Below are positions 13 through 62,386 of a DNA stretch of 64,000 nucleotides, one piece after another. The position numbers and the translations under genes are program-made. The notes below the pieces were generated by a model, which saw only the letters and a list, made by a program, of their open reading frames with translations, did not search any database and had not been told where the DNA came from. Source of the stretch: an uncultured Gemmatimonadaceae bacterium (GTDB lineage: Bacteria; Gemmatimonadota; Gemmatimonadetes; Gemmatimonadales; Gemmatimonadaceae); contig CAWHHI010000010.1 of NCBI GenBank assembly GCA_963829055.1, positions 152,207 through 216,206 of the forward strand, given 5' to 3'. Numbering within the stretch: the first letter of the stretch is position 1; each line of letters starts with the position of its first letter.

Positions 13-1467
13 GTGGCCCGAGGGGTAACGACGGGCGACACCGTCGCCACGCTGCTGCCTAACGTGCCGGCGATGTACGAGGCACACTTCGGCGTGCCGA
101 TGACGGGCGCGGTGCTCAACACCCTCAACACACGCCTGGACGCGGCGACCATCCGGTTCATGCTGGAGCATGGCGAGGCGAAGGTGCTCCTCGTCGACCG
201 CGAGTACGCGAGCCTCGCGGCCACGGCGCTTGCCGGGATCGACTCCCGCCCGCTCGTGATCGACGTCGACGATCCCGCCTACGACGGCGACGGCAACCCG
301 TTAGGCGAAGTAGAATACGAGGCGCTACTGCGCGACGGCGATCCGGCGTACGACTGGCAGCCGCCGTCAGACGAATGGAACGCGATCTCCCTCAACTACA
401 CGTCCGGGACCACCGGGAATCCAAAGGGAGTCGTCTACCATCATCGCGGCGCGTATCTCAACGCGATCGGCAACATCCTCTCGTGGAGCATGCCGCGGTA
501 TCCGGTCTATCTCTGGACGTTGCCGATGTTCCACTGCAACGGGTGGTGCTTCCCCTGGAGCATCGCCGCGCAGAGCGGGACGAACGTGTGTCTGCGGAAG
601 GTCGACGCCGAAGTGATCTTCCGCCTGATCGCCAGGCATCGCGTCACGCACTACTGCGGCGCTCCCATCGTACACAACACACTCACGGGCGCGCCGCCCG
701 AGATGCGTGAAGGGATCACGCACCGCATCGCGGCGATGGTGGCTGGTGCCTCGCCACCGCCATCGACGATCGAAGCGCTCGAGGCGATCAATATCGACCT
801 CACGCACACCTACGGGCTCACCGAGGTCTATGGACCCGCGACCGTGTGCACGAAGCAGGAAGAGTGGGACGATCTCGATCCACACGACCAGGCGCTTCGC
901 AACGGGCGACAGGGTGTTCCGTATCTGGTCGAGGAAGATGCCGCGGTACTCGACCCCGAGCGCATGGAGCCGGTGCCCGCCGACGGTGAGACCATCGGCG
1001 AGATCATGTTTCGCGGGAACATCGTGATGAAGGGGTATCTCAAGAACCCGTCCGCCACCGCGAAGGCGTTCGAAGGCGGATGGTTTCACTCGGGCGATCT
1101 CGCCGTCACGCAGCCCGACCAGTACATGAAGATCAAGGACCGCGCGAAGGACATCATCATCTCCGGCGGCGAGAACATCTCGTCACTCGAGGTGGAGGAC
1201 GCCCTGCACCGCCATCCGGCCGTGTTCGCCGCGGCGGTGGTGGCGGAGCCGCACGAGAAGTGGGGCGAGACGCCGTGCGCGTTCGTCGAGCTCAAGCCTA
1301 ACGCTGTGGTGGCAGAGGGCGACCTCATCGAGCACTGCCGGCAACTCCTCGCGCGCTTCAAGGTGCCGCGCCGCATCGTCTTCGGACCGCTCCCGAAGAC
1401 GTCGACGGGGAAGATTCAGAAGTTCATCCTGCGCGAGCGGGCGAAGTCGGCGGCCGCGATCGTCTGA
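13..1467 (+). CDS. Acyl-CoA synthetase (AMP-binding, FACL-like); probably 5'-truncated by window edge
   Basis: YTSGTTGNPKG AMP-binding loop, YGLTE, GWFHSGD, KDIIISGGENISS, PKTSTGKIQK motifs. Confidence 0.93.
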   Translation: MARGVTTGDTVATLLPNVPAMYEAHFGVPMTGAVLNTLNTRLDAATIRFMLEHGEAKVLLVDREYASLAATALAGIDSRPLVIDVDDPAYDGDGNPLGEVEYEALLRDGDPAYDWQPPSDEWNAISLNYTSGTTGNPKGVVYHHRGAYLNAIGNILSWSMPRYPVYLWTLPMFHCNGWCFPWSIAAQSGTNVCLRKVDAEVIFRLIARHRVTHYCGAPIVHNTLTGAPPEMREGITHRIAAMVAGASPPPSTIEALEAINIDLTHTYGLTEVYGPATVCTKQEEWDDLDPHDQALRNGRQGVPYLVEEDAAVLDPERMEPVPADGETIGEIMFRGNIVMKGYLKNPSATAKAFEGGWFHSGDLAVTQPDQYMKIKDRAKDIIISGGENISSLEVEDALHRHPAVFAAAVVAEPHEKWGETPCAFVELKPNAVVAEGDLIEHCRQLLARFKVPRRIVFGPLPKTSTGKIQKFILRERAKSAAAIV

Positions 1468-1468
1468 T

Positions 1469-1789
1469 TCAGGTCGCGGGAAAGAGCATCCGCAGCACAA
1501 ACACTGACAATAGGGCGGCGAGGCTCAGCGCGGCCGGCCAGAAGCGAGCAAGGCGCCGGAGCCGGGTCGGGGCCGATCCCGCCGCGCCAGGATCACGCGC
1601 GCGCAGTTCGGCCAACGCCTGCTCGAACGCACCGGGCGCGATCCCAGCTTCACGTGCCGCCTCGCGCAGCTCGCCAACGGACAGCTCGGCGACACGGGCG
1701 GCCTCGAGCTCGCTCGCTCGCGCGAGGAGCTGCCGGGCCGCCTTCTCAGGCAGCCGCTCAGCGTCGCGGGTCTGATCGCGCTCGGTCAT
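1469..1789 (-). CDS. Small hypothetical protein with C-terminal TM helix
   Basis: ATG at 1789 with GGAGG 6 nt upstream; LLARASELE...ELREAAREAGIAP helical region then hydrophobic tail. Confidence 0.6.
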   Translation of the reverse strand: MTERDQTRDAERLPEKAARQLLARASELEAARVAELSVGELREAAREAGIAPGAFEQALAELRARDPGAAGSAPTRLRRLARFWPAALSLAALLSVFVLRMLFPAT

Positions 1790-1913
1790 CGGCATCCTCC
1801 TGCGAAGTGAGTGCGGCGGGGTGGGCGGCGGGATGCTCGGAAAATAGCGCCGCGGCCGGGAGGCGCCCACTCGACATCCCGGCGAGCCAGGGCGCGTGGC
1901 GTCGAATCAGGGG

Positions 1914-12433: not shown

Positions 12434-13644
12434 ATGTCCAATCGGCGTACCTTCCTGAAGCAGACCGCCGCGATCGGCGGGGCCCTCAGCCTTTCACCGC
12501 TCGCAAAGCTCCCGCTCGAGGCGGCCGTGCCACTCACGCGGCCGAATCCCGGACGCGCACCCGCGCCGCTCAACATTCTCATCCTCGGCGGCACCGGCTT
12601 CACCGGCCCGGAGCAGGTCGAGTACGCGATCGCGCGCGGCCATCGCGTGACACTCTTCAATCGCGGCAAGACGCGGCCCGGCATGTTCAAGGGAAAGGTC
12701 GCCGAAGAGCTCATCGGTGACCTCAACGGCGACACGAGCGCGCTGAAAGGAAAGAAGTTCGACGTCGTGATCGACAATCCGACGACGCTTCCCTTCTGGG
12801 TGAAGAACGCCGCGCAGTACCTCAAGGGGAATACCAAGCACTACATCTTCATCTCGACGACGTCGGTCTACGCCGATCAGAGCGAGATCGGCATCAACGA
12901 GAACAGTCCGACGGTGCCGATGCCCGCCGGCCTCGATCCGTATCAGCCCGACCAGCGCAACACGGCGCAGCTCGCGGCGTCGAGTAACCCGGGGAACTAC
13001 GGCGCGTTCAAGGCGCGCGCCGAAGTGGAAGTGCAGAATCAGTATCCGGGCATCAACACGATCATCCGGCCGTGCCTCATCGTCGGGCCGCTCGATCGCA
13101 CCGACCGTTTCACGTACTGGCCGGCGCGTATCGACAAGGGCGGCGAAGTGCTCGCGCCCGACAAGCCGGACGATCCGTGTCAGTTCATCGACTCACGCGA
13201 TCTCGCCGAGTTCATGATCCGCATGGCGGAGATGCGCGAATTCGGAACGTACAACGCGATCGGTCCCGAGAAGCCGATGACGATCGCCGAGATGTTGTAC
13301 GGCGTCAAAGCGCGTCACCACGGCCGGCGCACAGTTCACGTGGGTGCCGTGGGAGTTCCTGCAGGCGCAGGGCGTCCGCCCGTGGACGCAGCATGACGGT
13401 CTGGCAGCCGCCGTACGGGCGCACCGCGGGCTACCAGCGGCGCAGCGCGGCGAAGGCACTCGCGAAAGGCCTAACGTTCCGCCCGCTCGCCGTCACGGCG
13501 AAAGACACGCTCGACTGGCACAAGACGCGTCCCGCAGAAGAGCAGGCCGCGACGCTCGAAGGCAAGATCAACGGCCTGTCGATGAAACGAGAAGCCGAGG
13601 TGCTCGCGGCGTGGAAAGAGGAGGTGGCGAAGCAGAGCAAGTGA
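12434..13644 (+). CDS. Tat-exported NAD-dependent epimerase/dehydratase (atypical SDR), frameshifted near 13310-13390
   Basis: SNRRTFLK Tat motif; ILILGGTGFTG; FISTTSVY; YGAFKA; RPCLIVGP; C-terminus GLTFRPLAVTAKDTLDW. Confidence 0.88.
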
Positions 13645-13672
13645 GAATTCACGACGATGCTACACGACGGTG

Positions 13673-14062
13673 CTATCTGACGGCGTCGGGATTTTGCGCG
13701 ACCAGCCACGCAAGCGCTGCATCCCGATCGGTGAAGATCGCATCGCGGCTGTACTGCTCCGAAAAAACCTGGTACTGGCGCGACACGCCGTAGGCGACAG
13801 GAGCAGATACCAGGATTGCGGTGGCCCACGTTCTATTCTGGATCGCGGGCCGCGCGATCGCCTCGATCAGCGTCGATAGCTCGGCACCGGTAAATGCTAT
13901 GTGCGCATCGAGAAGATCCACGAGCGTCCGCCTGCAGCGCATGACCTCCGGATCCGTGAGATAGGTGCGCCAGTATGCCGCGAGCTCGCCGGCGGTGACG
14001 GTTCCGGTCCAGGACTCGTTGATGATGTTGTGAACGCGGTCCACGGTGTATGCAATCGGCAA
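13673..14062 (-). CDS. Hypothetical SpoIIAA/STAS-like small protein
   Basis: 129-aa ORF; AILVSAPVAYGVSRQY...IFTDRDAALAWL pattern. Confidence 0.65.
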   Translation of the reverse strand: MPIAYTVDRVHNIINESWTGTVTAGELAAYWRTYLTDPEVMRCRRTLVDLLDAHIAFTGAELSTLIEAIARPAIQNRTWATAILVSAPVAYGVSRQYQVFSEQYSRDAIFTDRDAALAWLVAQNPDAVR

Positions 14063-14076
14063 CCATCACCTCCAAC

Positions 14077-15612
14077 TCATTGTGAAAAACGATCGATGAC
14101 TCTCCGCACACCTTCGTGTTCTGGTTGGTGTTCGTTGGCCTGCAGATGCGCGCCGGCTTCGAGAAGCGCGCGCACGCAGTCTTCGTAGTCACCACCGGCG
14201 TCGCGCACAAAATCTGCCCCCCAGCACGCCCAGCCCAGCGGTGTCGACGAGTGTTCTGCATCGCGGATGTCCGTCGCCGCTCCAGCCTCCAACAGCAGGC
14301 GAACCTGCTGCGCACGTCCGTGAAGAGCGCTGAAGTGGAGCGCAGATGCGCCGGAAGTGTCCGTGGTGTTGACAGGAAAGCCGGCTGCGACACAGGCCGA
14401 CACGGTCGCCTCTCTGCCGAGTGTCGCCGCTTCGATGAGGAGTTGGTGATCCGACGGCGCGAGCGCCGCCAACACATCAGGTGACGCGAGCTGACGCGCC
14501 GCTTCGACATCACCTCGCCCGCACGCAGCGAGCAGCAGGTCGACGGCAGAGAGACGCTGTGTTTCCGCGCCGAGCGATTCGAGCAGCGACGCGATGTCGT
14601 CGAAGCCACCGCGTCGCGCGAGTAGCCATGGTGTCGCGCCATCACCGCGACGTGCGTGGATGTCGGCGCCGTGGTCCAGGAGGAGCCGAATGACGTCGAC
14701 ACTCTGTCCGCGGCGCGCCGCGACGTGCAGCGCCGGCTCTCGCTCTTGTGCACTCGGGACGTTTGGATTGGCTCCGTGGTTCAGCAGCCACTCGAAACCC
14801 TGTTTGACGCGTGTCTCGCGATCGAGGTTCCAGTTGCGCAGGAGAAAGTACAGCGCGGTGTTTCCCCAATCGCCAACGAAGTTCAGGTCTGCGCCAGCAC
14901 GCAGCAGAAGCTCCAGTGCGTCTTCGTGAAACCGTTCGGCCGCATGAAAAATGGATTCGCCGTCAGTTGGGTTCGCGCCCGCATCGAGCAGCACGCGTGC
15001 GAGCGGCAACACGTTTCGCATGCCCGTGACCGCGTACAGAGCTGGAACACTGTACTGCGCATCGCGCGTATTCGGGTCGGCGCCCGCGGCGAGCAGGACG
15101 CGCGCTGTCGCCAGCAGTCCCGCATCGCGGGCCTCGCTCTCGCCATGGAATGGTGAGTAGCAGAGGAAGAGCAGCGGATCGGCAGGTGAATGGCCGGCGC
15201 GCTCGGAGACGAGCCCTGGATTCGCAGCGACGAGTCGCGCGACGGCAGCGTCGAGTCCAAGCGCGGCTGCGACATGCACACTCGTTGTCGCGATGTGCGG
15301 GTGAACACGGAGCACTTCGCGAGCGCGTTCCAGGTTCTGTTCCTGAACGGCCGAGAGGAAAGCCTCGACGCCGTCATCGTTGCTGCGCGACGCTTGCACG
15401 TGCGAGCGCAACTGCGCCCACGTGTGAAAGCCATACTCGCGGGCGATCACGCGCTGCGCGAACAAGAGCTTTCGTTCGGGGGTGTCGCCGATCGCGTCGC
15501 GGACGCGCTGAAGGGCAACCGGGTCGTCAGCCTGCCAGGCCTTATGAAGGGTCTTCGCTTCGCGCTTCAGGTGATCGAGATGCGGGCGGGCAGGCAGCTC
15601 ACGTGCCGACAT
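14077..15612 (-). CDS. Ankyrin-repeat protein with LPARP-type N-terminal helical domain
   Basis: AGGAGG RBS before ATG 15612; LPARPHLDHLKREAK...IAREYGFHTWAQL; repeated LLxAGADPN, PALHVAA, TPLGWA. Confidence 0.9.
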   Translation of the reverse strand: MSARELPARPHLDHLKREAKTLHKAWQADDPVALQRVRDAIGDTPERKLLFAQRVIAREYGFHTWAQLRSHVQASRSNDDGVEAFLSAVQEQNLERAREVLRVHPHIATTSVHVAAALGLDAAVARLVAANPGLVSERAGHSPADPLLFLCYSPFHGESEARDAGLLATARVLLAAGADPNTRDAQYSVPALYAVTGMRNVLPLARVLLDAGANPTDGESIFHAAERFHEDALELLLRAGADLNFVGDWGNTALYFLLRNWNLDRETRVKQGFEWLLNHGANPNVPSAQEREPALHVAARRGQSVDVIRLLLDHGADIHARRGDGATPWLLARRGGFDDIASLLESLGAETQRLSAVDLLLAACGRGDVEAARQLASPDVLAALAPSDHQLLIEAATLGREATVSACVAAGFPVNTTDTSGASALHFSALHGRAQQVRLLLEAGAATDIRDAEHSSTPLGWACWGADFVRDAGGDYEDCVRALLEAGAHLQANEHQPEHEGVRRVIDRFSQ

Positions 15613-15745
15613 GACAAACCTCCTTTCGTGGCTCGCCCGGGTCCGCGTCATCGGGCTGAAAGAAGGCTGTGTTGGCTATCGCCTGCTTCTACAGGTGGAC
15701 TGAGTCCTGTCCGCGGACGGAAGCGCCCTGGCGCGCTCCGTCCAA
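15613..15745 (-). promoter_or_regulatory. Candidate structured RNA leader of ankyrin gene
   Basis: Hairpin 15715-15743 overlaps a GTCCGCG/CGCGGAC long-range pairing (15712-15718 with 15641-15647); small hairpin 15697-15707. Confidence 0.4.
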
Positions 15746-15754
15746 CATAGTGCA

Positions 15755-15900
15755 TCAGGGCCGTGGTAGGCGAATCGTGTCGAGCATCTCGCGGACGGAC
15801 TCGATGACGAGCTCGGGCTGGTCGCGTTGGATGTAGTGCTTGCTTTTCTCGGCGAGGATCCACGAGGTACGGTCCGACCAGCCGGCCGGGCGCGTGCCAT
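15755..15900 (-). pseudogene. C-terminal remnant of an alpha/beta hydrolase
   Basis: ILAEKSKHYIQRDQPELVIESVREML resembles the catalytic-His end of ABH proteins; no intact N-terminus. Confidence 0.45.
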
Positions 15901-16160
15901 CGCGAGTCATCGCGCCGATGAAGGACGCGGGCGTACACCTGCCAGCAGTCGCCGGTCTCCAGCTCCCGTGCTCACATCCGCGTAGAGAGACGAGCCGTCC
16001 GCATTGAACACGATCTCGGCCATCTTCGCCCCCGGCCGCGCGAGAACGCGCACCGACTTCGCCGAGCCGATCGTTACGTCGACGTACGCTGTGTCGCCGC
16101 GTTGGTACGCAACTGACGGAACAGCGTGTCGCGATCCGGGCCGGTGTTACGGTTGACGTC

Positions 16161-17309
16161 TCATTTCGTCTTCGGCGCTCGCTGGCGGACACCGTTCTGG
16201 ACGAACACCAGGCCGGTCACCTTCCCGGCAGGATCGGTCTCGAACTCGATTTTCACGTCGACCACTTTCAGTGAGAAAACCGTCGGTGAGTCTGCATACA
16301 GCTGAAATTTCGGCTGACCCGTCGCCTGGACGAACAGCTTGTCCCCGTCGCGCGTGATGGTCATGACGAACGTCGGCGCGACAGGATAGTCCCCGACAAA
16401 GCGCTCGAGCTCGGGACGAGGGGTCGCTGCCGACAGGACAGCGCGAATCTCTGATGTTACGAGATCAGGCTCCGTCACGTGGACGAAGTGACTGCTGGCC
16501 GACGTCAACACGAGATGCGCTCTTGCCGACCGGCGAGTAAGCCGAGAAAAATGCTCGACGCGTTGATCGAACGTCGTTTGAAAGTACAAATCAGCGTCGC
16601 CGGGGAATTTGACTCCCGGCGCAAGCGGCTCTCTCTTGCCCGCGAGGAGGATGCTCATCGGCACATCCGGCGGATCCCCCGCTTCGCGATACTCGACGAA
16701 GCCGCCGCGTTCCACGCGCTCGATCTCCTGATACTCCGCGCGGAGCCCCGCCGGCGCTGCCGCCAGCGCTGGTTTGGTCATGCTTGCGATCGCGTCGTGG
16801 CCGTTCGTCATACCGGCCTTCGCGTAGATCGCTTGCATATCGGCTTCCGTCTGCGTGAAATCACTCGGATCGATGTAGACGAGACCTACTACTTCCCGGG
16901 GGAACATTGCACCGAACGTGTGGATGATTGGTCCTCCATAGGAGTGACCGACGAGCACGTACGGCGGGGGCGCGTCGAGCTTGGCGAGGAGGTCGTGGAG
17001 CTCTGTGGCGATCTGTTTTACGGTTCGCTGCGTGGTCGCGGGATCCGACTTGCCGACGCCCGCCCGATCGTATGCGATCGTTCGCGTCACCGCCGCGATG
17101 TCAGACTGCAGCCCGTTCCAGGTTGCGACCTGCGACCCGAGGCCACTTTCGAACACGACGGTCGGCACGCCCGGTCTGGCCGTTCCGGCCACCTGTACGT
17201 TGACTTTCCGACCGCCGACCTCGACGAGCGAAGGTGTGGGGACCTGAGAGCTCGCGATACGCGCCACCGTGACGAAGCCGAGCGTGGCGAGAAGGCTGGT
17301 TCTGATCAT
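16161..17309 (-). CDS. Secreted alpha/beta hydrolase with C-terminal DUF3471-like domain
   Basis: Signal peptide; VVFESGLG, YDRAGVGKSD, LVGHSYGG, SSHFVH; C-terminal ERFVGDY...LFVQATGQPKF. Confidence 0.88.
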   Translation of the reverse strand: MIRTSLLATLGFVTVARIASSQVPTPSLVEVGGRKVNVQVAGTARPGVPTVVFESGLGSQVATWNGLQSDIAAVTRTIAYDRAGVGKSDPATTQRTVKQIATELHDLLAKLDAPPPYVLVGHSYGGPIIHTFGAMFPREVVGLVYIDPSDFTQTEADMQAIYAKAGMTNGHDAIASMTKPALAAAPAGLRAEYQEIERVERGGFVEYREAGDPPDVPMSILLAGKREPLAPGVKFPGDADLYFQTTFDQRVEHFSRLTRRSARAHLVLTSASSHFVHVTEPDLVTSEIRAVLSAATPRPELERFVGDYPVAPTFVMTITRDGDKLFVQATGQPKFQLYADSPTVFSLKVVDVKIEFETDPAGKVTGLVFVQNGVRQRAPKTK

Positions 17310-17370
17310 TGAACGCCTGTAGTTGGTAGGAGGGGCAAGCTGTAGCGGAACAGCCAGGCTCGCCAGGGAC

Positions 17371-19231
17371 TCAGCCCGGAGCGGTCCGCACGTACTCGTC
17401 GACGTTCTTCGCCAGCACGTCGAGCGGCACGTTGCCTCCGCGCACGACGGTGTCGTTGAACGCCTTCAGATCGAACCTCGCGCCGAGTGCTGCCGTCGCC
17501 TTCTCGCGCTGCCGGTTGATCTCGCTGTGACCAACCTTGTAGCCGCATGCCTGTCCCGGCCACGCGCAGTAGCGGTCGACTTCACTCGCGACCTCGAGCG
17601 GATTCGATCCGTTGATGTCCACGAAGTACTGGACGCCCTGCTCACGCGTCCAGCGCTTGGCGTGGAGGCCCGTGTCGACGACCAGCCGGCACGCGCGGAA
17701 CGCGAGCGATTGCAGATACCCAAGGCGACCGACGCGATCGTCCGCGTAGGCCCCGAGCTCGTCGGCGAGCTGCTCGGCGTATAGCGCCCATCCTTCGGAG
17801 TACGCGTTGAAGTCGAGCATCTGCCGGATGAGCGGCATCTGGTGCGTGTACTCGCCCTGCCACACGTGTCCGGGAATCGCTTCATGGAAGGCCAGGTCCG
17901 CCAGGCTGTACTTGCTGTGGAGCTCCGTAGTCCGGAGGTTGATCCACATCCGACCTGGGATCTTGCCATCGATCGACCCCGCGCCGCCGTACGCCGCAGG
18001 AGCACCGGGCTCCTCCTCGGGCGGCAGCCGCTTCACTTCCATGTTCGGATCCACGACCGTGTTGAATGCGCGCGGCATCTGTGCGCGAATCCATGCCAGG
18101 CGTTCGTTGATGAAGGCCATGATGTCGGCGCGGCCCTTGTCGCCTTCAGCGAACTTGTAGCGGGGATCGTTCGCCAGCGCCTTCATTCGTTCGCCGACGG
18201 TGCCCTTCGAGAAGCCGATCTCCTTCAGGATCGTGTCCATCTGCGCGTGCAGCCGCTTCACTTCGCTCTCGCCTAACGCGTGGATCTCGTCGGGCGACAT
18301 GGTCGTGGTGGTCGAAGCCCTGAGCGCCCACCGATAGATACTCCTCGCCGTGCGGCCGAGCCGCGATCCCCGCGTCGTTCGTCGCTATCGACCGCTGTGA
18401 CTGCAGCTCGCTGAGCTGGCGCTCGAGCGCCGGCGCAATCTCCTGCGTGACGATCGTCCGCGCGCGCCCCGCCCAGTCCCCGGGGATGTTCTTCGACCGC
18501 CGCACGATCGACTCCACGAGCGACCCGCCATTCCGCGCGTTGCTCGCGGCGAGCGTCATCTGGCGCACGGCCTTGTCGATCAGGAACGCCGGTGGGACGA
18601 GACCTGCCGCGCGCGCCGCCTGCATCCGTTCGCGCTCTCCATCGAGCTGCTTCGCATACGACTGCAGCCGCGCGAGATACGCCTCGGCGTCAGGAGCGCT
18701 CTCGACGCGATGATCGGCATCGAGGAAACGCGGGATGTCGAGATAGGCGCCGACATTCTGGATGACGACGTACGGCGTGTTGCGCCAGCCGCCGACGGCG
18801 ACGTCGCCATACGGAAGCGCGAAACCGTCGAGCGCTGTCGCATACGCGCTCCGCACGACCTCGAAGCTGGTGCGCGTCGCGTGCGAGAGGCCGCTCGTGT
18901 CGAAGGCGTTGACGCGATCGAGATCCACCCGAAGCTGTTTCGCCAAACGCCGCTGGCCCTCCGCGGAGCGATCGGCGAGCACGGATCGCAGTGCGGCTCT
19001 CGCGCCGGTGTCGATGCCCAGCGAGGTCGCCTGCTCTGGCTTCAGGCGAATGAGATTTTCAGCCATCTCATCGAGTAGCGTGAGCGCACTGGCCTCGTTC
19101 GACTTGGTCGGCATGGGCTCACCGGAACGCCCGCAGGCAGAAAACAACGGGAGGGCGGCGGCGGAGACAACAGCCGCGATCATCTCACGACGACTGAGTG
19201 TCGTGTCGGAACGCGCGCGATCTTCGGTCAT
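17371..19231 (-). CDS. DUF885-family Tat lipoprotein (metallopeptidase-like), frameshift near 18330
   Basis: LSRREMI Tat + lipobox; HEAIPGH, AYSEGWALYAE, RACRLVVDTGLH, EVDRYCAWPGQACGYKVG. Confidence 0.9.
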
Positions 19232-25945: not shown

Positions 25946-26044
25946 GCCTAACGCCCCAGTTACGCCGCACAGGGGTCATACACGAGTGATGCGAAAGGCA
26001 TCACAATGCAATGAACCCTTTGTCGGCGTCAGCGCTCGTTAGGC
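25946..26044 (-). mobile_element. Integron attC site
   Basis: Minus strand GCCTAAC-GAGCG-CTGACGCCGAC...GCGGCGTAA-CTGGGGC-GTTAGGC: R''/L''/L'/R' boxes with two extrahelical bases. Confidence 0.85.
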
Positions 26045-26117
26045 CGCCCGCGCGGGCATGGCAAGCCGGCAGCATTCATGCTATCGAAGGCCGGCGCCGG
26101 CAGGTGCACGCGGCACA

Positions 26118-26601: not shown

Positions 26602-26697
26602 GCCTAACGCTGGAGTTCAGCTGCAAGCGCGCAGGGTTGGAGCCATGCTGCCGAGAGGAGCGTCCGCGCGCTCGTCAGCTGCATCGATTCGTTAGCG
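26602..26697 (-). mobile_element. Integron attC site
   Basis: Minus strand CGCTAAC-GAATCG-ATGCAGCTGAC...GCAGCTGAA-CTCCAGC-GTTAGGC. Confidence 0.88.
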
Positions 26698-27388: not shown

Positions 27389-27515
27389 CGCTAACGCCAA
27401 GTTCAGCTGCGGAGCGCCCCGGTTGCGGGCGTCGCAGACTCGAATCTCCTACCAAGGCGACCGGCGCACAACCTGATGCCGGTCGCTCCGTCAGAATGCA
27501 ACGCACGCGTTAGGC
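27389..27515 (-). mobile_element. Integron attC site
   Basis: Minus strand GCCTAAC-GCGTGCG-TTGCATTCTGACGGAGCG...CGCTCCGCAGCTGAA-CTTGGC-GTTAGCG. Confidence 0.8.
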
Positions 27516-31028: not shown

Positions 31029-31127
31029 GCACGTCCGCCACCGCTGGAACGAAAGTAGCGCCGCGCCTAACGGGCCATCCGACGTACGTGGTGGATCCGG
31101 CATCACTCGATACATGGGGAGGATAGT

Positions 31128-31367: not shown

Positions 31368-31499
31368 CGCAGCCACGCTCAACTTGCAGGGTGGCACTGT
31401 CAACACGGTTGCGATCGTTCCGATCGAGTCGGGTGGTTTCCAGCTGATCAACATTCAGCGCTGCTAACGCAGCAAACCGAGGTTCCAATGGTTGGCTGG

Positions 31500-32657
31500 A
31501 TGAAAAGATCGGTCTCGAGCACGTGCCCACGCCGCCGTAGCTCGACGCGGATCGTCGCCGCCCTCGCCCTGGTGGTCTGCGCCGCGTGCGGCGACAGCGG
31601 ACCCGCCGCACCCGCTTCTGAGATATCGGTCGACTCTGCCTTCGTGACCGCGCTCCGCGCGCGACTCGAAGCCGTCACGCAGGCCGGCGAGTTCTCCGGC
31701 GCTGTGCTGGTCATCCGCGACGGGCGCACGCTGTTCGAGGGTGCCTACGGACTCGCCGATCGGGAGCGAGGCGTCCCGAACACGCCGCTCACGCAGTTCC
31801 GCGTCGGGTCGATGAACAAGATGATGACCGCGGTTGCGACGCTGCAGCTCGTGCAGGCCGGGACGCTGCGCCTCGACGCGCCGCTCGGCACGTACTTGCG
31901 AGACTACCCGAACGCGGAGGTCGCGTCGACCGTGACGGCGCACCACCTGCTCACCCACACCGGCGGCACGGGCGACATCTTCGGACCGGAGTTCATGACG
32001 CACCGGTTGGAGCTTCGCACCACGTCGGATTACCTCCGCCTCTACGGCACGCGGGGCACGCAGTTCACGCCGGGGGCGCAGTGGGTGTACAGCAACTACG
32101 GCTTCATACTCCTCGGCGCTCTGATCGAGCAGCTGAGCGGGAATAGCTACTACGACCACGTCGCGGCGCGCGTGCTCGCGCCGGCGGGCATGATGGCCAC
32201 CGGCTTCGCGCCAGAAGACTCGCTCGTGCCCGGGCGGTCGGTCGGCTACACGCGGCTGCTGGTGCCCGGCGCGCTCGTGTCGAACGCGCCGACGCTGCCC
32301 TACCGCGGCACGCCCGCGGGGGGCGGGTACTCCACGGTGGGGGACTTCGCGCGCTTCGCCGTTGCGATTCGGGAGCGCCGACTGCTGGATTCGGCGCACA
32401 CGACGCTGCTCCTCACCGGGAAGGTCGCGGTCGGCCAGGGGGTGCAGTACGCGTACGGGTTCTTCGACCACGTCGTGCGCGGCCGACGATTCGTCGGGCA
32501 CAGCGGAGGTGCGGCGGGGATGAGCGGCGACCTCGAGTTCGAGCCGAACGGCGGGTACGTGATCGTCGTGCTGTCGAACTTCGACTCGGCGGCGACACAG
32601 GTGGCGACCTTCATCCTCGATCGCCTGCCGGCCACGCCCGCGGGAGGCGGCATATGA
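31500..32657 (+). CDS. Serine hydrolase (beta-lactamase family) lipoprotein
   Basis: FRVGSMNK, HLLTHTGG, YSNYGF, VGHSGG. Confidence 0.9.
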   Translation: MKRSVSSTCPRRRSSTRIVAALALVVCAACGDSGPAAPASEISVDSAFVTALRARLEAVTQAGEFSGAVLVIRDGRTLFEGAYGLADRERGVPNTPLTQFRVGSMNKMMTAVATLQLVQAGTLRLDAPLGTYLRDYPNAEVASTVTAHHLLTHTGGTGDIFGPEFMTHRLELRTTSDYLRLYGTRGTQFTPGAQWVYSNYGFILLGALIEQLSGNSYYDHVAARVLAPAGMMATGFAPEDSLVPGRSVGYTRLLVPGALVSNAPTLPYRGTPAGGGYSTVGDFARFAVAIRERRLLDSAHTTLLLTGKVAVGQGVQYAYGFFDHVVRGRRFVGHSGGAAGMSGDLEFEPNGGYVIVVLSNFDSAATQVATFILDRLPATPAGGGI

Positions 32658-33970
32658 GACGCGCTACAGCATTGTCGACGATTCCGATCGCGTGTCTCGC
32701 GGTTCTGCTTTCCTGCCGCGGAGAGCCGACGACCCCGGCCTCCAAGCCGGTTACGACTCCTGCGCAGCAGGAGATTCCGATCACCGGCGCCGCGGTGCCG
32801 GGAATGAAGTCGTACGATCAGGTCATCCCCGATTTGATGCGGAAGTACGCGATTCCCGGTGGCGCGGTTGCCGTGATGCGCGATGGCAAGTTGATCTACG
32901 CGCGCGGCTTTGGTTACGCGGATGTCGAGAACAAGACGCCGGTGCAGCCTGACGCCCTGTTCCGGATCGCCAGCGTGTCCAAGACGCTCACCAGCGCCGC
33001 CATCATGAAGCTCGTCGAGGAGGGCAAGCTCAAACTCGACGATCGCGTCGCGCCACTCATTGCCTACCTCACGCCCGCACCGGGAGCGACCGTCGACCCG
33101 CGGTGGGAGCAGATCACCATTCGGCATCTGCTCAACCACACCGGGGGCTGGGATCGTGAGAAACCGAATGGCGGATTCGACCCGATAGATCGGCCGGCGA
33201 TCGCCGCGGCCGCGGTCGACGCGCCCGCGCCGGCATCGGCGTGAAACGCTGATCCGCTACATGAAGGGAATGCCGCTCGACTTCAATCCGGGCGAACGGT
33301 TCGCCTACTCGAATTTTGGCTACATCATTCTCGGCCGCGTGATCGAGCGTGTGAGCGGCATGCCGTACAAGGAGTACGTGCGCGCACGCGTGCTCGCGCC
33401 CGTGGGCGCCAATCGCACGCAGCAGGGCAAGTCGCGCATGAGCGACGCGCTCCCGGACGAGGTGAAGTACTACTGGCCCGGGGCTGGGCGTGAACGCGCC
33501 GCTGGTGCCATCCGTTTTCCCGGGCGAAGGCCTGGTGCCCCTCAACTACGGGGGCTACCACCACGAAGCGGGTGATGCAAGCGGCGCCTGGGTCTCGTCG
33601 ACCGTCGATCTTCTGCGATTCCTGGGCGGCGTCGATGGCCGCCCCAATCGTCCGGACATCCTCAGCGCTGAACTCGTCGCGGCAGATGACCAGCTACGGC
33701 GCGCAGGTATGTGCCAGTGGCGCGTGCTATTACGCAGCCGGCTGGTTTGTTCGCCCAACCCAGGGCGACGCGAACTGGTGGCACGGGGGAACGCTGCCCG
33801 GCACGACGAGCATGCTCGTGCGCACGTATAACAACTTCTCGTGGGTCGGTCTGTTCAACACTCGCTCCCTGACAGCCAACCTCGAGGCCGAGCTCGATGC
33901 CGCGCTCTGGAATGCGCTCGCGGGCGTCACATCATTTCCGACGCACGACCTGTTTTCGACCTTCCGATGA
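32654..33970 (+). CDS. Serine hydrolase (beta-lactamase family) lipoprotein, frameshifted
   Basis: FRIASVSK, HLLNHTGG, AYSNFGY, WWHGGTLPG spread over four ORFs. Confidence 0.85.
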
Positions 33971-34094
33971 CATGAGCCGCAGCATCAACGTGTCTGCGGC
34001 TCTGTGTTGAACAGAACGGCGCTCCGCAACTCACGCTTTCCCCGGACAGCGTCGTCGTGGGTGTATTCGAATCGTCGCCGCTGATCGCCACGGT

Positions 34095-34499
34095 TTGGGT
34101 TTTAGCTGGGGCGGCGCGACGGGTGCGCTGTTCGTCGGCATTGAACGGCGCCTTAAAACGGCGGTGCTCGTAGTCGGACACGGCGGTCACGTCTCGCACG
34201 CCACGGGTCCGGAAGGGTTCAAATACATTGCCGGTTTCTCGTGTGCCAGACGTGTCGCCTGGATTCGAGCGATGGCACCGATAGAGCCGATTCGATTCGT
34301 TGGGCATGCTAACATCCCGTTGTTGTTGCAAAACGGGACGTTGGACGCCCTGATACCGCGTCCCGATGCGGAGGCGATACACGCAGCCGCGCCGCAGCCC
34401 AAGGAGGTTCGCTGGTATGACGCGGGACACGGCCTCACTCCGCAGGCCGGCGACGACAGGTATGCGTGGCTGCATCAGCACATTGGCATAGACCCCTGA
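34095..34499 (+). pseudogene. C-terminal half of an alpha/beta hydrolase
   Basis: GFSWGG nucleophile, LLLQNGTLD, WYDAGHGL; the upstream sequence is unrelated. Confidence 0.6.
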
Positions 34500-34883
34500 A
34501 GTCCGTGCAATGACACCGGCAATCGCGGTCGTCGCGGTGACGGATTCCGGGTGCGGAGCCTCGATCGCAACGTCAGCCGGGATCGCCGGAAGATACCGGA
34601 TGCTGGCGAGAAACTCGATGCTCGCAGCGCTCGTCAGGTTCAGCGCACGTTAGGCCGCGACGTAAGTGGCCTCTCGGCCGGCTAGACTAGAGTGACCGGC
34701 GCAACGTGTCGACCTCCACGTCGGTCCAGCGCGTCCATGCCGGCGACAGTGAATTGGAGCGCGCGCCCGGTCAACGGGACCTCGGCTAAATAACGCGGAT
34801 CGCGTTGTCGCCCGAACTCAGAAGCATACTGGTGGCCTGCGTGAGTCTCGCCCGGGAAGGTTCGCGCACCGTCGTATCGGGAT

Positions 34884-36572: not shown

Positions 36573-36632
36573 GCCTAACGCCTGAGTCAAGCCGAGTCGC
36601 GAAGCGGCTTCGGCTCGAATGAATTGCTAGGC
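36573..36632 (-). mobile_element. 60-bp integron attC site (short type; R'' altered to GCCTAGC)
   Basis: Minus strand GCCTAGCAATTCATTCGAGCCGAAGCCGCTTCGCGACTCGGCTTGACTCAGGCGTTAGGC. Confidence 0.85.
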
Positions 36633-36662
36633 CGCACTTGCCGCGCCATTTCAGTGTCGCCC

Positions 36663-36855: not shown

Positions 36856-36951
36856 GCCTAACGCCTTAGCTAAGCTGCAAGCGGATCAAATAAAACGCGA
36901 GCGTAGCGAGCTTCATTAAATGGCTTGTCAGCTTCAGCGTGTGTTTTAGGT
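36856..36951 (-). mobile_element. Integron attC site (R'' degenerate)
   Basis: Minus strand ACCTAAAAC-ACACG-CTGAAGCTGACAAGC...GCTTGCAGCTTAG-CTAAGGC-GTTAGGC. Confidence 0.78.
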
Positions 36952-37961: not shown

Positions 37962-38057
37962 GCCTAACGCCCCAGTTCAGCTGCGTCGGCGCGGGCTGCA
38001 GCTGTGACTGCGGTTGCAGCGGTGCGCGCCCACGTCAGCTGCAACGATCCGTTGTGC
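37962..38057 (-). mobile_element. Integron attC site
   Basis: Minus strand GCACAAC-GGATCG-TTGCAGCTGACGT...ACGCAGCTGAA-CTGGGGC-GTTAGGC. Confidence 0.88.
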
Positions 38058-49617: not shown

Positions 49618-49722
49618 GATTTTCCGGAGAGGCGACCGGAACATTATACCCCTCCGCCGGCGTTTTGCCCTCCTCCTTTGGGGCGTCGGCAGTTGGCCGA
49701 CGGCAGATCGCCGCTCACTACA

Positions 49723-55376: not shown

Positions 55377-57131
55377 ATGCGCGTCCTCTACGGCTACCTG
55401 AAGCCGCACCGCCTGCTCGTTCTCCTCGCGCTCGGCCTCGCGGTGACCAGCCAGGTCTTCTCGCTGCTCGACCCGCTGATCTTCCGCTACATCATCGACC
55501 AGTACGCGACGCGCTACGACCGCTACACCGCCGGCGAGTTCACCCGCGGCGTGCTCCTGATGCTCGGCGCTTCTGTCGGGGTAAATCTCCTCTCACGGGT
55601 CGCGCTCAACTTTCAGGACTACGTCGTCAACGTCGTGAGCCAGCGGCTCGGAGCGCAACTCTACACCGACGGGATTCGCCATTCGCTCGCGATGCCGTAC
55701 CAGGTCTTCGAGGACCAGCGGAGCGGCGAGACGTTAGGCAGGCTGCAGCGGACGCGCGTCGACGTCGAGCGGTTCATCGCGACGTTCGTGAGCGTGCTCC
55801 CGCCGGCGCTCGTGGGCGTCGCGTTCATCATGATCTACTCGGCCACCGTCCACTGGGCGATCGCGCCAGCGTTCCTGCTCGCGATTCTGCTGCTGGCCGG
55901 GTTGAGCTTCGCCCTGAGCCGCAAGATCAAGACGATGCAGAAGGTCATCGTCGCCGAGACGACCGCGCTCGCGGGCGCGACGACGGAGTCACTCCGAAAC
56001 ATCGAGCTCGTGAAGAGCTTAGGGCTGACGGATCAGGAAGTCAGGCGGCTCAACTCGACGACGACCAGGATTCTCGGGCTCGAGCTCAAGAAGGTGCGCT
56101 ACCTCCGGAGCCTGAGCTTCGTGCAGGGGACGGCCGTGAACATCATGCGGACGGCGATCCTCTTTCTCATGCTGTTCCTGATCGTGCGGCAGCAGATCTC
56201 GATCGGGGAGTTCTTCGCGATTCTCTTCTACTCGTTCTACGTCTTTGGCCCACTGCAGGAGGTGGGGAACGTCATCAGCACGTGGCGGATCACGGAGGCG
56301 TCACTCGCGAACTTCCAGGCGATCCTCGACACGCCGGTGGACGCGAAGCCGACGAACCCGCAGGCCGTGCACGACCTGCGTGACCTCGAGTTCCGCGACG
56401 TGAGCTTCATGCACCAGACCGCGTCCACGTCCGCGCTCGCGGAGGTGTCGTTCCGTGCGAGTCGCGGCGAGACGGTCGCGTTCGTCGGCCCATCCGGCGC
56501 GGGAAAGACGACGCTCGTGAAGCTGCTCGTCGGATTGTACGCGCCGAAGGCGGGCTGTGTGCTCTACAACGGCATCGCGAGCACGGCGGTCGATCTCGAC
56601 GGATTCCGCGAGCGCATCGGCCTCGTCACGCAGGATGCACAGCTCTTCTCCGGCTCCCTGCGCGAGAACCTGCTGTTCGTCAGGCCTAACGCCACGGATG
56701 GAGAGTGCCTCGACGTGCTCCGTCGCGCGGCGGCGCACTCACTGCTCGAGCGCGCCGACCGTGGGCTCGACACGGTGATCGGTGAGGGCGGGATGAAGAT
56801 CTCGGGCGGGGAGAAGCAGCGGCTGTCGATCGCGCGCGCCCTGCTCCGCCGGCCGCACCTGCTGGTGTTCGACGAGGCGACGTCGGCGCTGGACTCACTG
56901 ACGGAGGAAGAGATCGGGCGCACGATGCGCGAGGTATCGGCGTCGAGCGACGTGATCACGGTGATGATCGCGCACCGGCTATCGACGATCATGCACGCGG
57001 ATCGGATCTACGTGCTCGAGCGCGGCCGGATCGTGGACACGGGCCAGCATGATGATCTGGTGGCCGCGAAAGGACTGTATTACGCGATGTGGCGGCAGCA
57101 GGTAGGGGAGGCCGTAGGAAGGAGGCCGTAG
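55377..57131 (+). CDS. ABC exporter, fused permease/ATP-binding protein
   Basis: TM domain; GPSGAGKT, ISGGEKQR, LVFDEATSALD, IAHRLST. Confidence 0.95.
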   Translation: MRVLYGYLKPHRLLVLLALGLAVTSQVFSLLDPLIFRYIIDQYATRYDRYTAGEFTRGVLLMLGASVGVNLLSRVALNFQDYVVNVVSQRLGAQLYTDGIRHSLAMPYQVFEDQRSGETLGRLQRTRVDVERFIATFVSVLPPALVGVAFIMIYSATVHWAIAPAFLLAILLLAGLSFALSRKIKTMQKVIVAETTALAGATTESLRNIELVKSLGLTDQEVRRLNSTTTRILGLELKKVRYLRSLSFVQGTAVNIMRTAILFLMLFLIVRQQISIGEFFAILFYSFYVFGPLQEVGNVISTWRITEASLANFQAILDTPVDAKPTNPQAVHDLRDLEFRDVSFMHQTASTSALAEVSFRASRGETVAFVGPSGAGKTTLVKLLVGLYAPKAGCVLYNGIASTAVDLDGFRERIGLVTQDAQLFSGSLRENLLFVRPNATDGECLDVLRRAAAHSLLERADRGLDTVIGEGGMKISGGEKQRLSIARALLRRPHLLVFDEATSALDSLTEEEIGRTMREVSASSDVITVMIAHRLSTIMHADRIYVLERGRIVDTGQHDDLVAAKGLYYAMWRQQVGEAVGRRP

Positions 57132-60354: not shown

Positions 60355-61578
60355 CTACGTCGTCGAGGCGGTCTCGGATTTCATGCCCAGCATCGCCTTC
60401 GCGATCGGGATGAGCGGCACGTTGAACCCCACCGACCGCTCCATCACCCAGAGCAGGCCAATAGCGATCAGCCCGACGGAGCCCAGACGGAACGCGTAGT
60501 TGTACACGCGCAGCCGTCGCGCGAAAAAGAGCACCGGGAAGACCGCGGCGATGATCGCGACCTGTCCGATCTCCACACCGACGTTGAAGCCGAGCAGCGA
60601 CAGGACGAGGTGGTCGGTGCCGAGGCCGAGCGATCCGAGCACAGAGGCGAAGCCGAAGCCGTGGAACAGCCCGAACACGAACGCGATCGCGGCCTCGTTG
60701 ATACGCGCCAGCGGGAAGAGGTTGTGCAGCGCTGCAATGGCGATCGACAGCGCAATCACCGACTCCACGAGCCGGGAGGGGACGTCCACCACACCTAACG
60801 CCGCGAGGGAGAGCGTGATCGTGTGGGCGATCGTGAAGCACGAGACGATCGTCAGGATCTTGACGAGCGCCTTGCTGAAGCTCTGCGCGGGAAGCCACCG
60901 TCCGCCTTCGCGTCGCAGCACCGACGGCAACACGAGCGCCATGAGGAAGAGGATGTGGTCGATCCCGATCCAGATGTGCCACACGCCGAGGCGAACGAGC
61001 GCCAGGAACCCGCGCCAGACCGATGACTTGCTGAGGTCGAGCACCTGCGTCGGTTCCTCGGGCGAGAACACCATCGAGACGTTCATGTCGTTCCCGAGTA
61101 TCCCGGCGCGCCAGTTGTGCTGAATCACGAGCATGTTGCGGCGCGTGGACTCGTTGAACTCGAAGAACGGCTTCATTGTGATGGGCACGCGCGCGCCTAA
61201 CGGTTTGGCGATGGCGTACTGCAGCAGCAGGAAGTTGCCCGACTCGGTCGGGCGGAAGTCGAAGCCGCGGTAGACAGGCGTCGCGAGGTCGGCGCCGGCA
61301 CCGAGCGCGAAGCGCGGCTCGACGTAGCCGCGGATGGCGGGGAGACTCGCCTCGACCTGCTCGCGCGTCGGCATGGCCTTCGGGTCCCACGACAGCGAAA
61401 GAGCGCGCGCGACGTCGGTGGTGGCGAGCTCGAGACGCACGACCGTCGAGTCGCTGTACACCATCAGGAACATGTATCCCTGCAAAGGCGCGTGCGCAGC
61501 CGCGACTGCATTCGTCGGCGCGGCGGCTGCGCCGAATGCGATCAGCGACATGAAAAGCGCAAGGCGAATCTTGTTCAT
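60355..61578 (-). CDS. HupE/UreJ family protein with periplasmic N-terminal domain
   Basis: LGVWHIWIGIDHILFL, FTIAHTITL, VESVIALSI, FGLFHGFGFA, GFNVGVEIGQ. Confidence 0.92.
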   Translation of the reverse strand: MNKIRLALFMSLIAFGAAAAPTNAVAAAHAPLQGYMFLMVYSDSTVVRLELATTDVARALSLSWDPKAMPTREQVEASLPAIRGYVEPRFALGAGADLATPVYRGFDFRPTESGNFLLLQYAIAKPLGARVPITMKPFFEFNESTRRNMLVIQHNWRAGILGNDMNVSMVFSPEEPTQVLDLSKSSVWRGFLALVRLGVWHIWIGIDHILFLMALVLPSVLRREGGRWLPAQSFSKALVKILTIVSCFTIAHTITLSLAALGVVDVPSRLVESVIALSIAIAALHNLFPLARINEAAIAFVFGLFHGFGFASVLGSLGLGTDHLVLSLLGFNVGVEIGQVAIIAAVFPVLFFARRLRVYNYAFRLGSVGLIAIGLLWVMERSVGFNVPLIPIAKAMLGMKSETASTT

Positions 61579-61588
61579 CGTCTCCCGG

Positions 61589-62290
61589 TCATCGGATTCT
61601 ATCTGCCATGGTGCATCGCACGAGCTCCCACCCTGCCCCTTCGGCCGCGACGCACGCCGCGTAGCCAGGAAGGTCGTTCACCTCGGTCAGCGTCCATCGG
61701 TCCTGCAACTCGGCGGACGCCTCACGCGCGTGGCGAAAGACACCGCCGATCCCTTCACCCGTGGCCTTCGCCAGGGCTTCCTTGCGCGTCCACAGCGCAA
61801 AGAATGCGCGCTCTCGGTGCGCCTGCGCGAGACCTGTGATGGCCGCAAGCTCGCTGGGCGTACAGATACGCGCCGCAACGCTTTCGAGATCCGGCATGGG
61901 CCGCAGCTGTTCCACGTCGACCCCAACCTGTCGACCGCGCGCCACAGCGATGAGTGCGAGATCACCGCTATGCGACAGGTTGAACTCAATGTCCGCATCC
62001 TCCACGAACGGCTTCCCGTTCTCCTGGGCGCCAAAGCGCAGGGCGCGCGGGTCGCACGTTAGGTAGTCGGCAAGCACCAGTCGGAGCGCTCCATGCGCGA
62101 ACAAGTAGCGCTCGCCGTCGTCTCGCCGGTAGAAGCGGGACGCGCGTTCGCGCTCGGCATCAGTCGTGCCGGCAAGCCAGCGCGCCGCGTCACCGGACGG
62201 CGGAACCAGATTTGCGACCCAGACGTGCACCTTGTCCGGTTCCGGCGAGCGCAGGTCGTAATAGCGGTGGGACAGCGGTGGTTGTGACAC
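61589..62290 (-). CDS. Sfp-type 4'-phosphopantetheinyl transferase
   Basis: NGKP, FNLSHSG, VGVDVE, WTRKEALAKATGEG. Confidence 0.93.
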   Translation of the reverse strand: MSQPPLSHRYYDLRSPEPDKVHVWVANLVPPSGDAARWLAGTTDAERERASRFYRRDDGERYLFAHGALRLVLADYLTCDPRALRFGAQENGKPFVEDADIEFNLSHSGDLALIAVARGRQVGVDVEQLRPMPDLESVAARICTPSELAAITGLAQAHRERAFFALWTRKEALAKATGEGIGGVFRHAREASAELQDRWTLTEVNDLPGYAACVAAEGAGWELVRCTMADRIR

Positions 62291-62386
62291 CTAACGGCCT
62301 TCCGGGTCCCGGTGACGGTTCCTATCATTTGGCGGGGTGCCCGTCCCCCCACTCCCATCCCGTTCTCGAGTCGAGACCAGCCGCCG

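What the first reader, a model, noticed from the sequence alone, without database searches (positions are those of the whole stretch)
58..62296. Window-wide iterated 7-mer CCTAACG/CGTTAGG, identical to the integron core site and embedded in ordinary genes
Seen: by eye about 61 exact copies (~36 CCTAACG, ~25 CGTTAGG), e.g. 58, 299, 1297, 3356, 3573, 4199, 4657, 7676, 10034, 13470, 18272, 29705, 42504, 46502, 47921, 52866, 55732, 58280, 60794, 62290. A simple base-composition estimate at ~68% GC predicts about 7. Most lie inside housekeeping CDSs, in different frames, and force codons that are rare at this GC (CCG TTA GGC at 299, GGC CTA ACG at 13470, GTC GTT AGG at 29705, ACG TTA GGC at 55732), so selection or mutation acts on the DNA word, not the protein. 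Both orientations occur, unlike strongly polarised Chi/KOPS motifs. I saw none in about 13.5-18.2 kb or 31.1-34.6 kb. Established: GCCTAAC/GTTAGGC fits the attC R''/R' consensus, and HIP1 and DNA-uptake sequences are precedents for coding-embedded iterated words. Inference: this may be an undescribed lineage-specific genome tag (uptake signal, methylation/repair-driven motif, protein-binding site), or a genome-wide set of integrase secondary sites feeding the local mosaic.
Basis: partly seen in the sequence, partly recalled or inferred. Interest (0 to 1): 0.88.

Follow-up and report, generated by a model that had tools for sequence, protein, structure and literature searches.

The report
Genome-wide DNA word that viruses copy
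This soil bacterium, some relatives and an unrelated group of soil bacteria have written the word CGTTAGG about once per kilobase through their genes, and several kinds of viruses carry it even more densely, which suggests an undescribed 'self' tag read inside the cell; what reads it is still unknown.

Summary
Confirmed: 61 copies in the window (chance 3.4), 6,391 in the genome, a Gemmatimonadaceae MAG. The word, (C>T)GTTA(G>T)G(C>T), arises by substitution inside genes: 62% of TTA codons lie in it, and it is 14-fold above a synonymous-codon shuffle. It is kept between congeners (48/62 vs 35% for any 7-mer), is not polar (51.8% leading strand) and thins out within ~300 bp of another copy. It is patchy across Gemmatimonadales, fills 37 of 61 Verrucomicrobiota-related genomes, and occurs in the cultured strain Gemmatirosa kalamazoonensis KBS708, whose published m6A motifs exclude it. 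It spells the attC core, but under 1% of copies sit in attC sites and intI does not track it. New here: eight virus-like contigs (tailed phages, a rolling-circle element, a possible linear replicon) carry 2.2-4.4 copies/kb, mostly evenly spaced, above all 24 cellular contigs caught by the same kind of search (at most 1.6/kb). Best reading (0.45): a self tag read inside the cell that protects nearby DNA and that viruses mimic. Rivals: uptake sequence (0.25), repair ratchet (0.15), integrase targets (0.08).

The parts
58..62296 (.). 61 dispersed copies of CGTTAGG/CCTAACG (36 on +, 25 on -), part of 6,391 in the genome; consensus (C>T)GTTA(G>T)G(C>T)
299..305 (+). Example copy forcing CCG TTA GGC (Pro-Leu-Gly) in an AMP-binding enzyme gene (13-1467 +)
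55732..55738 (+). Example copy forcing ACG TTA GGC (Thr-Leu-Gly) in an ABC transporter gene (55377-57131 +)
25946..26045 (-). attC-like site with the word as both R'' and R'
   Evidence: sequence; model R1 hit (in the training set)
26602..26697 (-). attC-like site, R' = CGTTAGGC; a 154-aa cassette-like ORF at 26118-26582 follows it
27389..27515 (-). attC-like site, R'' carries the word, R' is CGTTAGCG
34570..34655 (-). Half attC (R''/L'' arm only), decayed
   Evidence: read by eye; similar arms in congeners
36573..36633 (-). Short (about 60 bp) attC-like site, R' = CGTTAGGC
36856..36950 (-). attC-like site, R' = CGTTAGGC
37962..38057 (-). attC-like site, R' = CGTTAGGC, directly upstream of an alpha/beta-hydrolase cassette gene (36997-37932 -)
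13477..18271 (.).
31073..34647 (.). Second word-free gap; within the normal gap distribution

Best explanation
The word is a sequence-encoded self tag read inside the cell. SHOWN: it is selected at DNA level, works on either strand, its benefit saturates within about 300 bp, it is the same in two phyla, it is not an m6A motif of the one cultured carrier, and viruses of several kinds carry it more densely than cells. INFERRED: a host protein binds (C/T)GTTA(G/T)G(C/T) in double-stranded DNA and shields a few hundred bases around it from a partner that degrades, blocks or silences untagged DNA. Chromosomes and megaplasmids gain copies by substitution wherever the protein sequence allows. Viruses, whose whole genome is tested at each infection, are pushed to one copy per about 300 bp.
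For: Codon-aware excess: 3,256 copies in high-confidence CDS vs about 232 after within-gene synonymous shuffles; 1,304 of 2,097 TTA codons and 938 of 1,487 PN[VADEG] tripeptides use it; PN[VADEG] is about 2x enriched, other PNx about 1x. Purifying selection: 48 of 62 aligned sites intact in congeners at 83% identity vs 35% of any 7-mer or other TA-words (sites not all independent). Local saturation: pair correlation 0.24 below 50 bp, about 0.9 from 300 bp; occupancy of [ATSP]LG sites 0.03 when another copy is under 50 bp away vs 0.42 at 500-750 bp; variants TGTTAGG and CGTTATG are repelled too, control words are not. Non-polar: 1,800 vs 1,678 leading/lagging, while KOPS tracks GC skew (rho 0.65). 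Viruses: L251 (terminase, portal, scaffold), L321/L340/L356 (virion proteins, endolysin), L548/L571 (own DNA polymerase, primase, SSB, exonuclease), L564 (Rep_1), L555 (Atlas look-alikes include telomere-associated Tap and polB-like clusters, a lead only). They carry 2.2-4.4/kb after subtracting the matches that selected them, vs 0-1.59/kb in all 24 cellular contigs of at least 4 kb from the metagenome scan. Spacing is more even than random in 7 of 8 (CV 0.52-0.68, p at most 0.02; L555 p 0.058); the word is kept 23 of 24 times between L321 and L340 vs 53% of any 7-mer. 78 relatives of L321 hold 6 copies in 870 kb and 5 relatives of L548 hold 4 in 94 kb, so density follows something outside the phage family. 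One L548 gene is 68-72% identical to a Gemmatimonadaceae gene family, best in the genus of the densest host. The phage with its own replisome is still dense, so the word is not a host priming site (inference).
Against: No reader or effector gene was found. The host chromosome tolerates word-free stretches of 7-16 kb holding core genes, so absence is not lethal in cis. Hosts of the viruses are not proven, and the L548 link could be a prophage flank. The three tailed-phage pieces may belong to one family, so the independent cases may be only three. Densest hosts reach 1.77/kb genome-wide (G014) and 2.35/kb locally (L313), so the viral excess is about 1.3-2.5x over them, and lower viral GC (55-66%) makes the needed codons cheaper. 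Other virus contigs and the small element G303:C4 sit at host-like 0.7-1.0/kb without even spacing. Dense contigs were rare: 8 among the 259 viral and metagenome loci from the four pattern scans with up to 10 kb flanks plus the relatives scans.
Confidence: 0.45

Rival explanations
1. A DNA-uptake sequence (DUS/USS-like): a competence receptor prefers DNA carrying the word, perhaps to harvest attC-bearing gene cassettes, and uptake plus recombination drives it through the chromosome.
For: Same signature as USS/DUS in PMC2817400 (passages read): non-palindromic, both orientations, more even than random, doubling of encoded tripeptides. ComEA-like genes lie next to pilB/pilT/pilC in G000 and G303. 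Natural transformation shuffles integron cassettes (PMC12614218, abstract listing and passages).
Against: Uptake drive gives no clear benefit to virion-injected DNA, yet viruses are denser than cells. ComEA hits occur equally in motif-poor G292 and G363. No excess of inverted terminator pairs; close pairs are depleted in every orientation. Density is lower, not higher, in core-gene regions.
Confidence: 0.25
2. A HIP1-type repair ratchet: a mark or nick at the word directs mismatch repair over about 300 bp, so errors that make a new word far from others are fixed and errors that destroy one are repaired; any DNA replicating in the cell, viral DNA included, accumulates it with no fitness benefit.
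For: Would give substitution-born sites, apparent conservation, repulsion near existing sites and accumulation in viruses. The model for HIP1 is summarised in PMC13756078 (abstract, introduction and start of results read).
Against: No strand mark found: the KBS708 methylome lists only RGATCY, ATGCAC and CCAGN7TCA (PMC3974934, whole text), though its plasmids carry 34 and 32 copies per 50 kb. No C5 methylase hit in G000 (86% complete) or G303 (100%). One-off neighbours around TTA are not depleted (O/E about 1). m5C and non-methyl marks were not excluded.
Confidence: 0.15
3. The copies are integrase secondary (attG-like) targets or scars: IntI itself reads the word and cassette traffic spreads it or exploits it.
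For: The word and its two strongest variants are the R' (CGTTAGGC) and R'' (TGTTAGGC) of attC sites even in motif-poor G027. G000 has an intI with attC sites spread over about 110 kb of C20. attG integration is established (cited in PMC12614218; the primary paper was not read).
Against: 25 model hits (150 of 10,167 candidates scored) vs 6,391 copies. intI over cut-off in 4 of 8 motif-rich, 3 of 5 intermediate and 17 of 28 motif-poor genomes, with no clade special to motif-rich genomes. The C20 intI has changes at the catalytic K and first H. No excess of R''...R' pairs at attC distances. The common attC cores GTTAGAC and GTTAGCC are not enriched. Sites in rpoB arise without indels. No empty-site junction was seen in five congeners (synteny was poor).
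Confidence: 0.08
4. A structural or topological site (nucleoid protein, DNA bridging, sequence-specific topoisomerase) needed every few hundred bases on any DNA in the cell.
For: Fits even spacing, no polarity and presence in viruses. TopoIB occurs in 8 of 8 motif-rich Gemmatimonadaceae (G014 only a fragment) and 29 of 37 motif-rich vs 6 of 24 motif-poor Verrucomicrobiota relatives.
Against: TopoIB is also in 9 of 28 motif-poor Gemmatimonadales, was not found in 3 of 5 intermediate ones, and its tree follows the hosts, not the motif. No periodicity in the pair correlation up to 3 kb. A structural need does not explain why viruses exceed hosts.
Confidence: 0.07

Closest known systems
Uptake sequences: USS of Pasteurellaceae, DUS of Neisseriaceae
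   Same: Non-palindromic, about 1 per kb, both orientations, more even than random, born by substitution, doubles the tripeptides it encodes (PMC2817400 passages)
   Different: 7-8 bp with no extended flanks; no terminator dyads; same word in two phyla; denser in viruses than cells; uptake untested
Chi (RecBCD/AddAB)
   Same: Unmodified short word; phages lacking their own recombinase or inhibitor over-represent it (PMC3784561 passages; PMC12315714 passages: phage LLS 2.5x host density)
   Different: Chi is 2-3x over-represented and polar (20:3 in LLS); this word is 25-70x enriched and non-polar in the host (51.8%) and at most weakly skewed in viruses. Carriers differ in resection enzyme: AddAB in G000, RecBCD in G322, neither seen in G303, AddAB also in motif-poor G292
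HIP1 (GCGATCGC) of cyanobacteria
   Same: Highly iterated, coding-embedded, conserved, polyphyletic, spread by substitution (PMC13756078 introduction)
   Different: Not palindromic; no linked methylase found; no quasi-period
Integron attC core (R'/R'', GTTRRRY) and attG secondary sites
   Same: Letter-for-letter the commonest R' (CGTTAGGC) and R'' of attC sites in this order
   Different: Over 99% of copies have no L boxes or hairpin; intI does not co-occur; narrower than GTTRRRY

Membership tests
DUS/USS uptake sequences | Strong over-representation, both orientations, even spacing, proteome imprint | tested here: met
DUS/USS uptake sequences | Raises DNA binding or uptake by competent cells | not testable with these tools
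   needs a transformation assay
DUS/USS uptake sequences | Frequent inverted pairs in terminators | tested here: not met
   close pairs depleted in all orientations; only two hairpin pairs seen, C18:97494 and C20:163143
DUS/USS uptake sequences | Specific receptor (ComP-type pilin) confined to carriers | tested here: inconclusive
   only ComEA-type HHH_3 searched; hits in motif-rich and motif-poor genomes alike; pilins not tested
Chi | Polarity with replication direction | tested here: not met
   51.8% on the leading strand
Chi | Read by one resection enzyme shared by carriers | tested here: not met
   AddAB in G000 and motif-poor G292, RecBCD in G322, none seen in G303
Chi | Over-represented in some phages of the host | tested here: met
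   hosts not proven
HIP1 | Palindrome | tested here: not met
   sequence
HIP1 | Methylated by a co-occurring methyltransferase | tested here: not met
   not among the m6A motifs of KBS708; no PF00145 hit in G000 or G303; m5C in vivo not measured
attC sites | R''-L''...L'-R' hairpin with extrahelical bases | tested here: not met
   met by about 25 sites in the genome, not by the other ~6,350 copies
attG integrase secondary sites | Used by IntI for cassette integration | tested here: inconclusive
   no empty-site junction found in five congeners, poor synteny; no assay possible
KOPS / dif | Polarised to the terminus, or part of dif | tested here: not met
   KOPS flips near C16:560 kb where an ordinary dif-like site lacking the word lies
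R-M / BREX methylation motif | m6A or m4C at the motif; phages avoid the site | tested here: not met
   viruses gain rather than lose it

The most novel reading that the evidence does not exclude
A methylation-free self/non-self system shared across phyla: the cell licenses DNA by the density of an unmodified word equal to the integron core site, so cassettes pass as self, whole genomes are rewritten to carry it, viruses evolve to tile it every 300 bp, and as a side effect any gene between two copies becomes a ready substrate for new gene cassettes.
Probability: 0.3. Interest if true: 0.95.

Novelty: new variant of a known kind. Interest (0 to 1): 0.82.

Why it matters
Hyper-abundant selected words are known from few groups (USS/DUS, HIP1, Chi). 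This one is the same word in two phyla of abundant soil bacteria, has reshaped codon use and the proteome, and is copied by viruses more densely than by cells, which points to an unknown DNA-surveillance mechanism. It is directly testable: a cultured type strain (Gemmatirosa kalamazoonensis KBS708) carries it, and motif-rich and motif-poor species exist within one genus. It also offers a host-prediction marker for soil viruses, a practical rule for getting DNA into these hard-to-engineer bacteria, and a handle on where integron cassettes come from.

Tried and rejected
Basecalling or assembly artefact: rejected. Codon or amino-acid bias: rejected. Depletion of one-off neighbours seen was a model artefact; an independence fit gave O/E about 1 and motif-poor genomes had as few CHTTAGG. 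'Dialects' in G022 and G035 were tandem heptamer arrays. Candidate readers: IntI; extra tyrosine recombinases (G000 has only XerC, XerD and intI); dif; C5 methylase; ComEA; AddAB/RecBCD; radical-SAM TIGR03916 (over cut-off in 5 of 41, all in the own genus, not in G014; 15 of 37 motif-rich vs 1 of 24 motif-poor Verrucomicrobiota relatives), associated but missing from most carriers; TopoIB. A motif-pattern list of G000 helicases and ATPases gave no obvious candidate. My first two attC scans were too strict. No prophage relative of the L251 portal in 5 carriers (uninformative) and no other IMG/VR relative. L533 (8/kb) is an odd low-complexity stretch and was left out of the virus count. The Atlas search of a window protein gave no useful taxonomy. 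Literature: 'CCTAACG' as a whole word in 1 unrelated paper; nothing on this word in the listings; most subscription papers and supplements were not searched.
Full report
1. Observation. The window holds exactly 61 copies (36 CCTAACG, 25 CGTTAGG) against 3.39 in dinucleotide shuffles, none of 100 reaching it. The window is G000:C10:152207-216206. rpoB from a congener retrieves Gemmatimonadaceae records as closest, so I treat the host as a member of that family.

2. Genome-wide. All 20 contigs carry it, 6,391 copies, 0.64-1.09 per kb, the top 7-mer at 26x an order-2 Markov model. A table of all words around TTA gives CGTTAGG 71x, TGTTAGG 17x, CGTTATG 7x, AGTTAGG 4x, GGTTAGG 3x and all others about 1; the next base is C in 78% and T in 13%. 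In 3,638 high-confidence genes from my own gene caller (69% coding coverage, the assembly has frameshifts) there are 3,256 copies in all four stop-free frames vs about 232 after synonymous shuffles; 1,304 of 2,097 TTA codons and 938 of 1,487 PN[VADEG] tripeptides use it. PN[VADEG] tripeptides are 1.7-2.1x enriched, other PNx 0.7-1.2x. In rpoB the sites arise by mostly synonymous substitution without indels, on separate branches. Between congeners at 83% identity 48 of 62 aligned sites are intact, vs 35% of any 7-mer.

3. Arrangement. Not polar: 51.8% on the leading strand. Copies repel each other: pair correlation 0.24 below 50 bp, 0.45 at 100-150 bp, about 0.9 from 300 bp, flat to 3 kb. A permissive [ATSP]LG site is used 3% of the time if another copy is under 50 bp away and 42% at 500-750 bp. 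The variants TGTTAGG and CGTTATG are repelled as well; control words are not. The three longest word-free stretches (31-50 kb) look like foreign DNA (8 vs 417 copies per Mb), but host stretches of 7-16 kb with core genes also lack it.

4. Distribution. Among 41 relatives: all 7 genomes of the genus 0.48-0.89/kb, G014 1.77/kb, five at 0.16-0.35, 28 below 0.09. Among 301 genomes of the phylum, 4 are at 0.6/kb or more, 10 at 0.11-0.29, the rest below 0.1; G239 and G296 are rich while G292 of the same genus has 111 copies. One of 80 rpoB loci from many phyla, a Verrucomicrobiae MAG, had 22 copies in 23 kb; its genome G322 has 3,804; 37 of 61 genomes around it have 0.49-1.57/kb and 24 have at most 0.06/kb. 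Named plasmids of Gemmatirosa kalamazoonensis KBS708 carry 34 and 32 copies per 50 kb vs 3 and 1 for the reversed control; that strain's PacBio methylome lists three m6A motifs, none containing the word (PMC3974934, whole text). Unpublished genomes (G013, G084, G123, G202, G329, G353) are counted in these tallies; no conclusion depends on them.

5. Integron link. The window has a decayed cassette cluster at 25.9-38.1 kb, top strand minus, R' mostly GCGTTAGGC. In motif-poor G027 attC sites end in CGTTAGGC and mostly begin GCCTAACA, the two strongest genome-wide forms, so the match is more than one word. But a covariance model built from 17 sites (8 from G000) gave 25 hits (150 of 10,167 candidates scored). 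intI passes the cut-off in 4 of 8 rich, 3 of 5 intermediate and 17 of 28 poor genomes and forms no carrier-specific clade. IntI activity is therefore not the driver; a reader with similar specificity remains possible (inference).

6. Viruses. Pattern scans for spaced pairs or triples in IMG/VR and JGI metagenomes, plus a relatives scan, returned mostly chance hits and cellular contigs, but also eight virus-like contigs with very high density: L251 (39 in 17 kb; terminase, portal, scaffold), L321/L340/L356 (26, 24, 14; virion proteins, endolysin), L548/L571 (49, 33; DNA polymerase A, D5 primase, SSB, DUF2800 exonuclease), L564 (19; Rep_1 and a transglutaminase-like protein) and L555 (23; Atlas look-alikes only). 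After removing the selecting matches they hold 2.2-4.4/kb; the 24 cellular contigs of at least 4 kb hold 0-1.59/kb (L533 left out as low-complexity). The word is the top or, in L555, joint-top 7-mer in the five tested, spacing is more even than random in 7 of 8, and it is conserved between related phages (23/24, 10/11, 31/31). Strand bias is weak (only L251, 27:12, p 0.02). Relatives of these phages lack it. A gene of L548 matches a Gemmatimonadaceae family at 68-72% DNA identity in many of 151 genomes, best in the genus of G014. Against over-reading: hosts are unproven, the tailed pieces may be one family, dense hosts reach 1.8-2.4/kb, and other viral contigs and G303:C4 sit at host-like 0.7-1.0/kb.

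7. Mechanism. Selection on the word, saturation at about 300 bp, no polarity and viral over-shoot together fit best with a protein that binds the word inside the cell and protects nearby DNA (0.45). An uptake sequence fits the chromosome equally well (PMC2817400, passages) but not the viruses (0.25). A repair ratchet as proposed for HIP1 (PMC13756078, abstract to start of results) fits the repulsion but lacks a mark (0.15). Chi is the known precedent for viral mimicry (PMC3784561 and PMC12315714, passages) but is polar, far less enriched and read by enzymes that differ among these carriers. Every candidate reader I could test failed: IntI, other tyrosine recombinases, C5 methylase, ComEA, AddAB/RecBCD, TIGR03916 and TopoIB.

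8. Novelty. I found no paper on this word (open-access library only, supplements not searched). Five earlier notes of this scan report the same word, the second phylum and the attC match in other genomes; they are not independent support, and I checked those claims here. Verdict: a real, undescribed member of the class of hyper-abundant selected DNA words that fails defining tests for Chi, HIP1 and attC and is untested for uptake. Interest 0.82.

Noticed in passing
L068 (CATPAW010000139.1, Chthoniobacterales MAG): A different iterated word, about AAGATCGACAAT, 18 core copies in 22 kb on both strands; possibly a second tag in a sister lineage.
   Followed up: no
G000 C6:5,440-55,038; C11:1-44,055; C6:591,808-623,330: Three long word-free stretches whose genes look foreign to the host by my reading (second copies of core genes; Rhizobiales-like content); probably chimeric joins, usable as a contamination marker.
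   Followed up: partly
G000 C20:208,009-208,986 (-): intI in the same orientation as its downstream cassettes, with changes at the catalytic K and first H and a short deletion in the IntI insertion; attC sites scattered from 97 to 207 kb.
   Followed up: partly
L188 (IMGVR_UViG_3300023212_000464) 131-4,004: Array of 14 same-strand CCCATCGCCTAACGG repeats about 250 bp apart in a 118-kb viral contig; a different phenomenon.
   Followed up: no
L212/L213 (IMGVR_UViG_3300005659_000030) 10.0-14.8 kb: 13 attC-like arms in one orientation inside a contig called viral: an integron array on or beside a virus.
   Followed up: no
G000 C11:689,292-692,594: TIGR03916 radical-SAM gene and its neighbour, 68% identical to the copy in G322 from another phylum; enriched in carriers but not universal.
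   Followed up: partly
L533 (JGI10216J12902_106184151): 3-kb stretch of odd composition rich in TA/CG words with almost no genes and 24 copies of the word.
   Followed up: no
window, several genes (e.g. 17371-19321, 39390-41349, 44609-49644): Many genes are split by frameshifts; contigs from public runs show single-base indels at some such places, so these are likely assembly errors.
   Followed up: partly
G000 high-confidence genes: 147 of 454 TAA stops and 114 of 963 TAG stops are part of the word.
   Followed up: no
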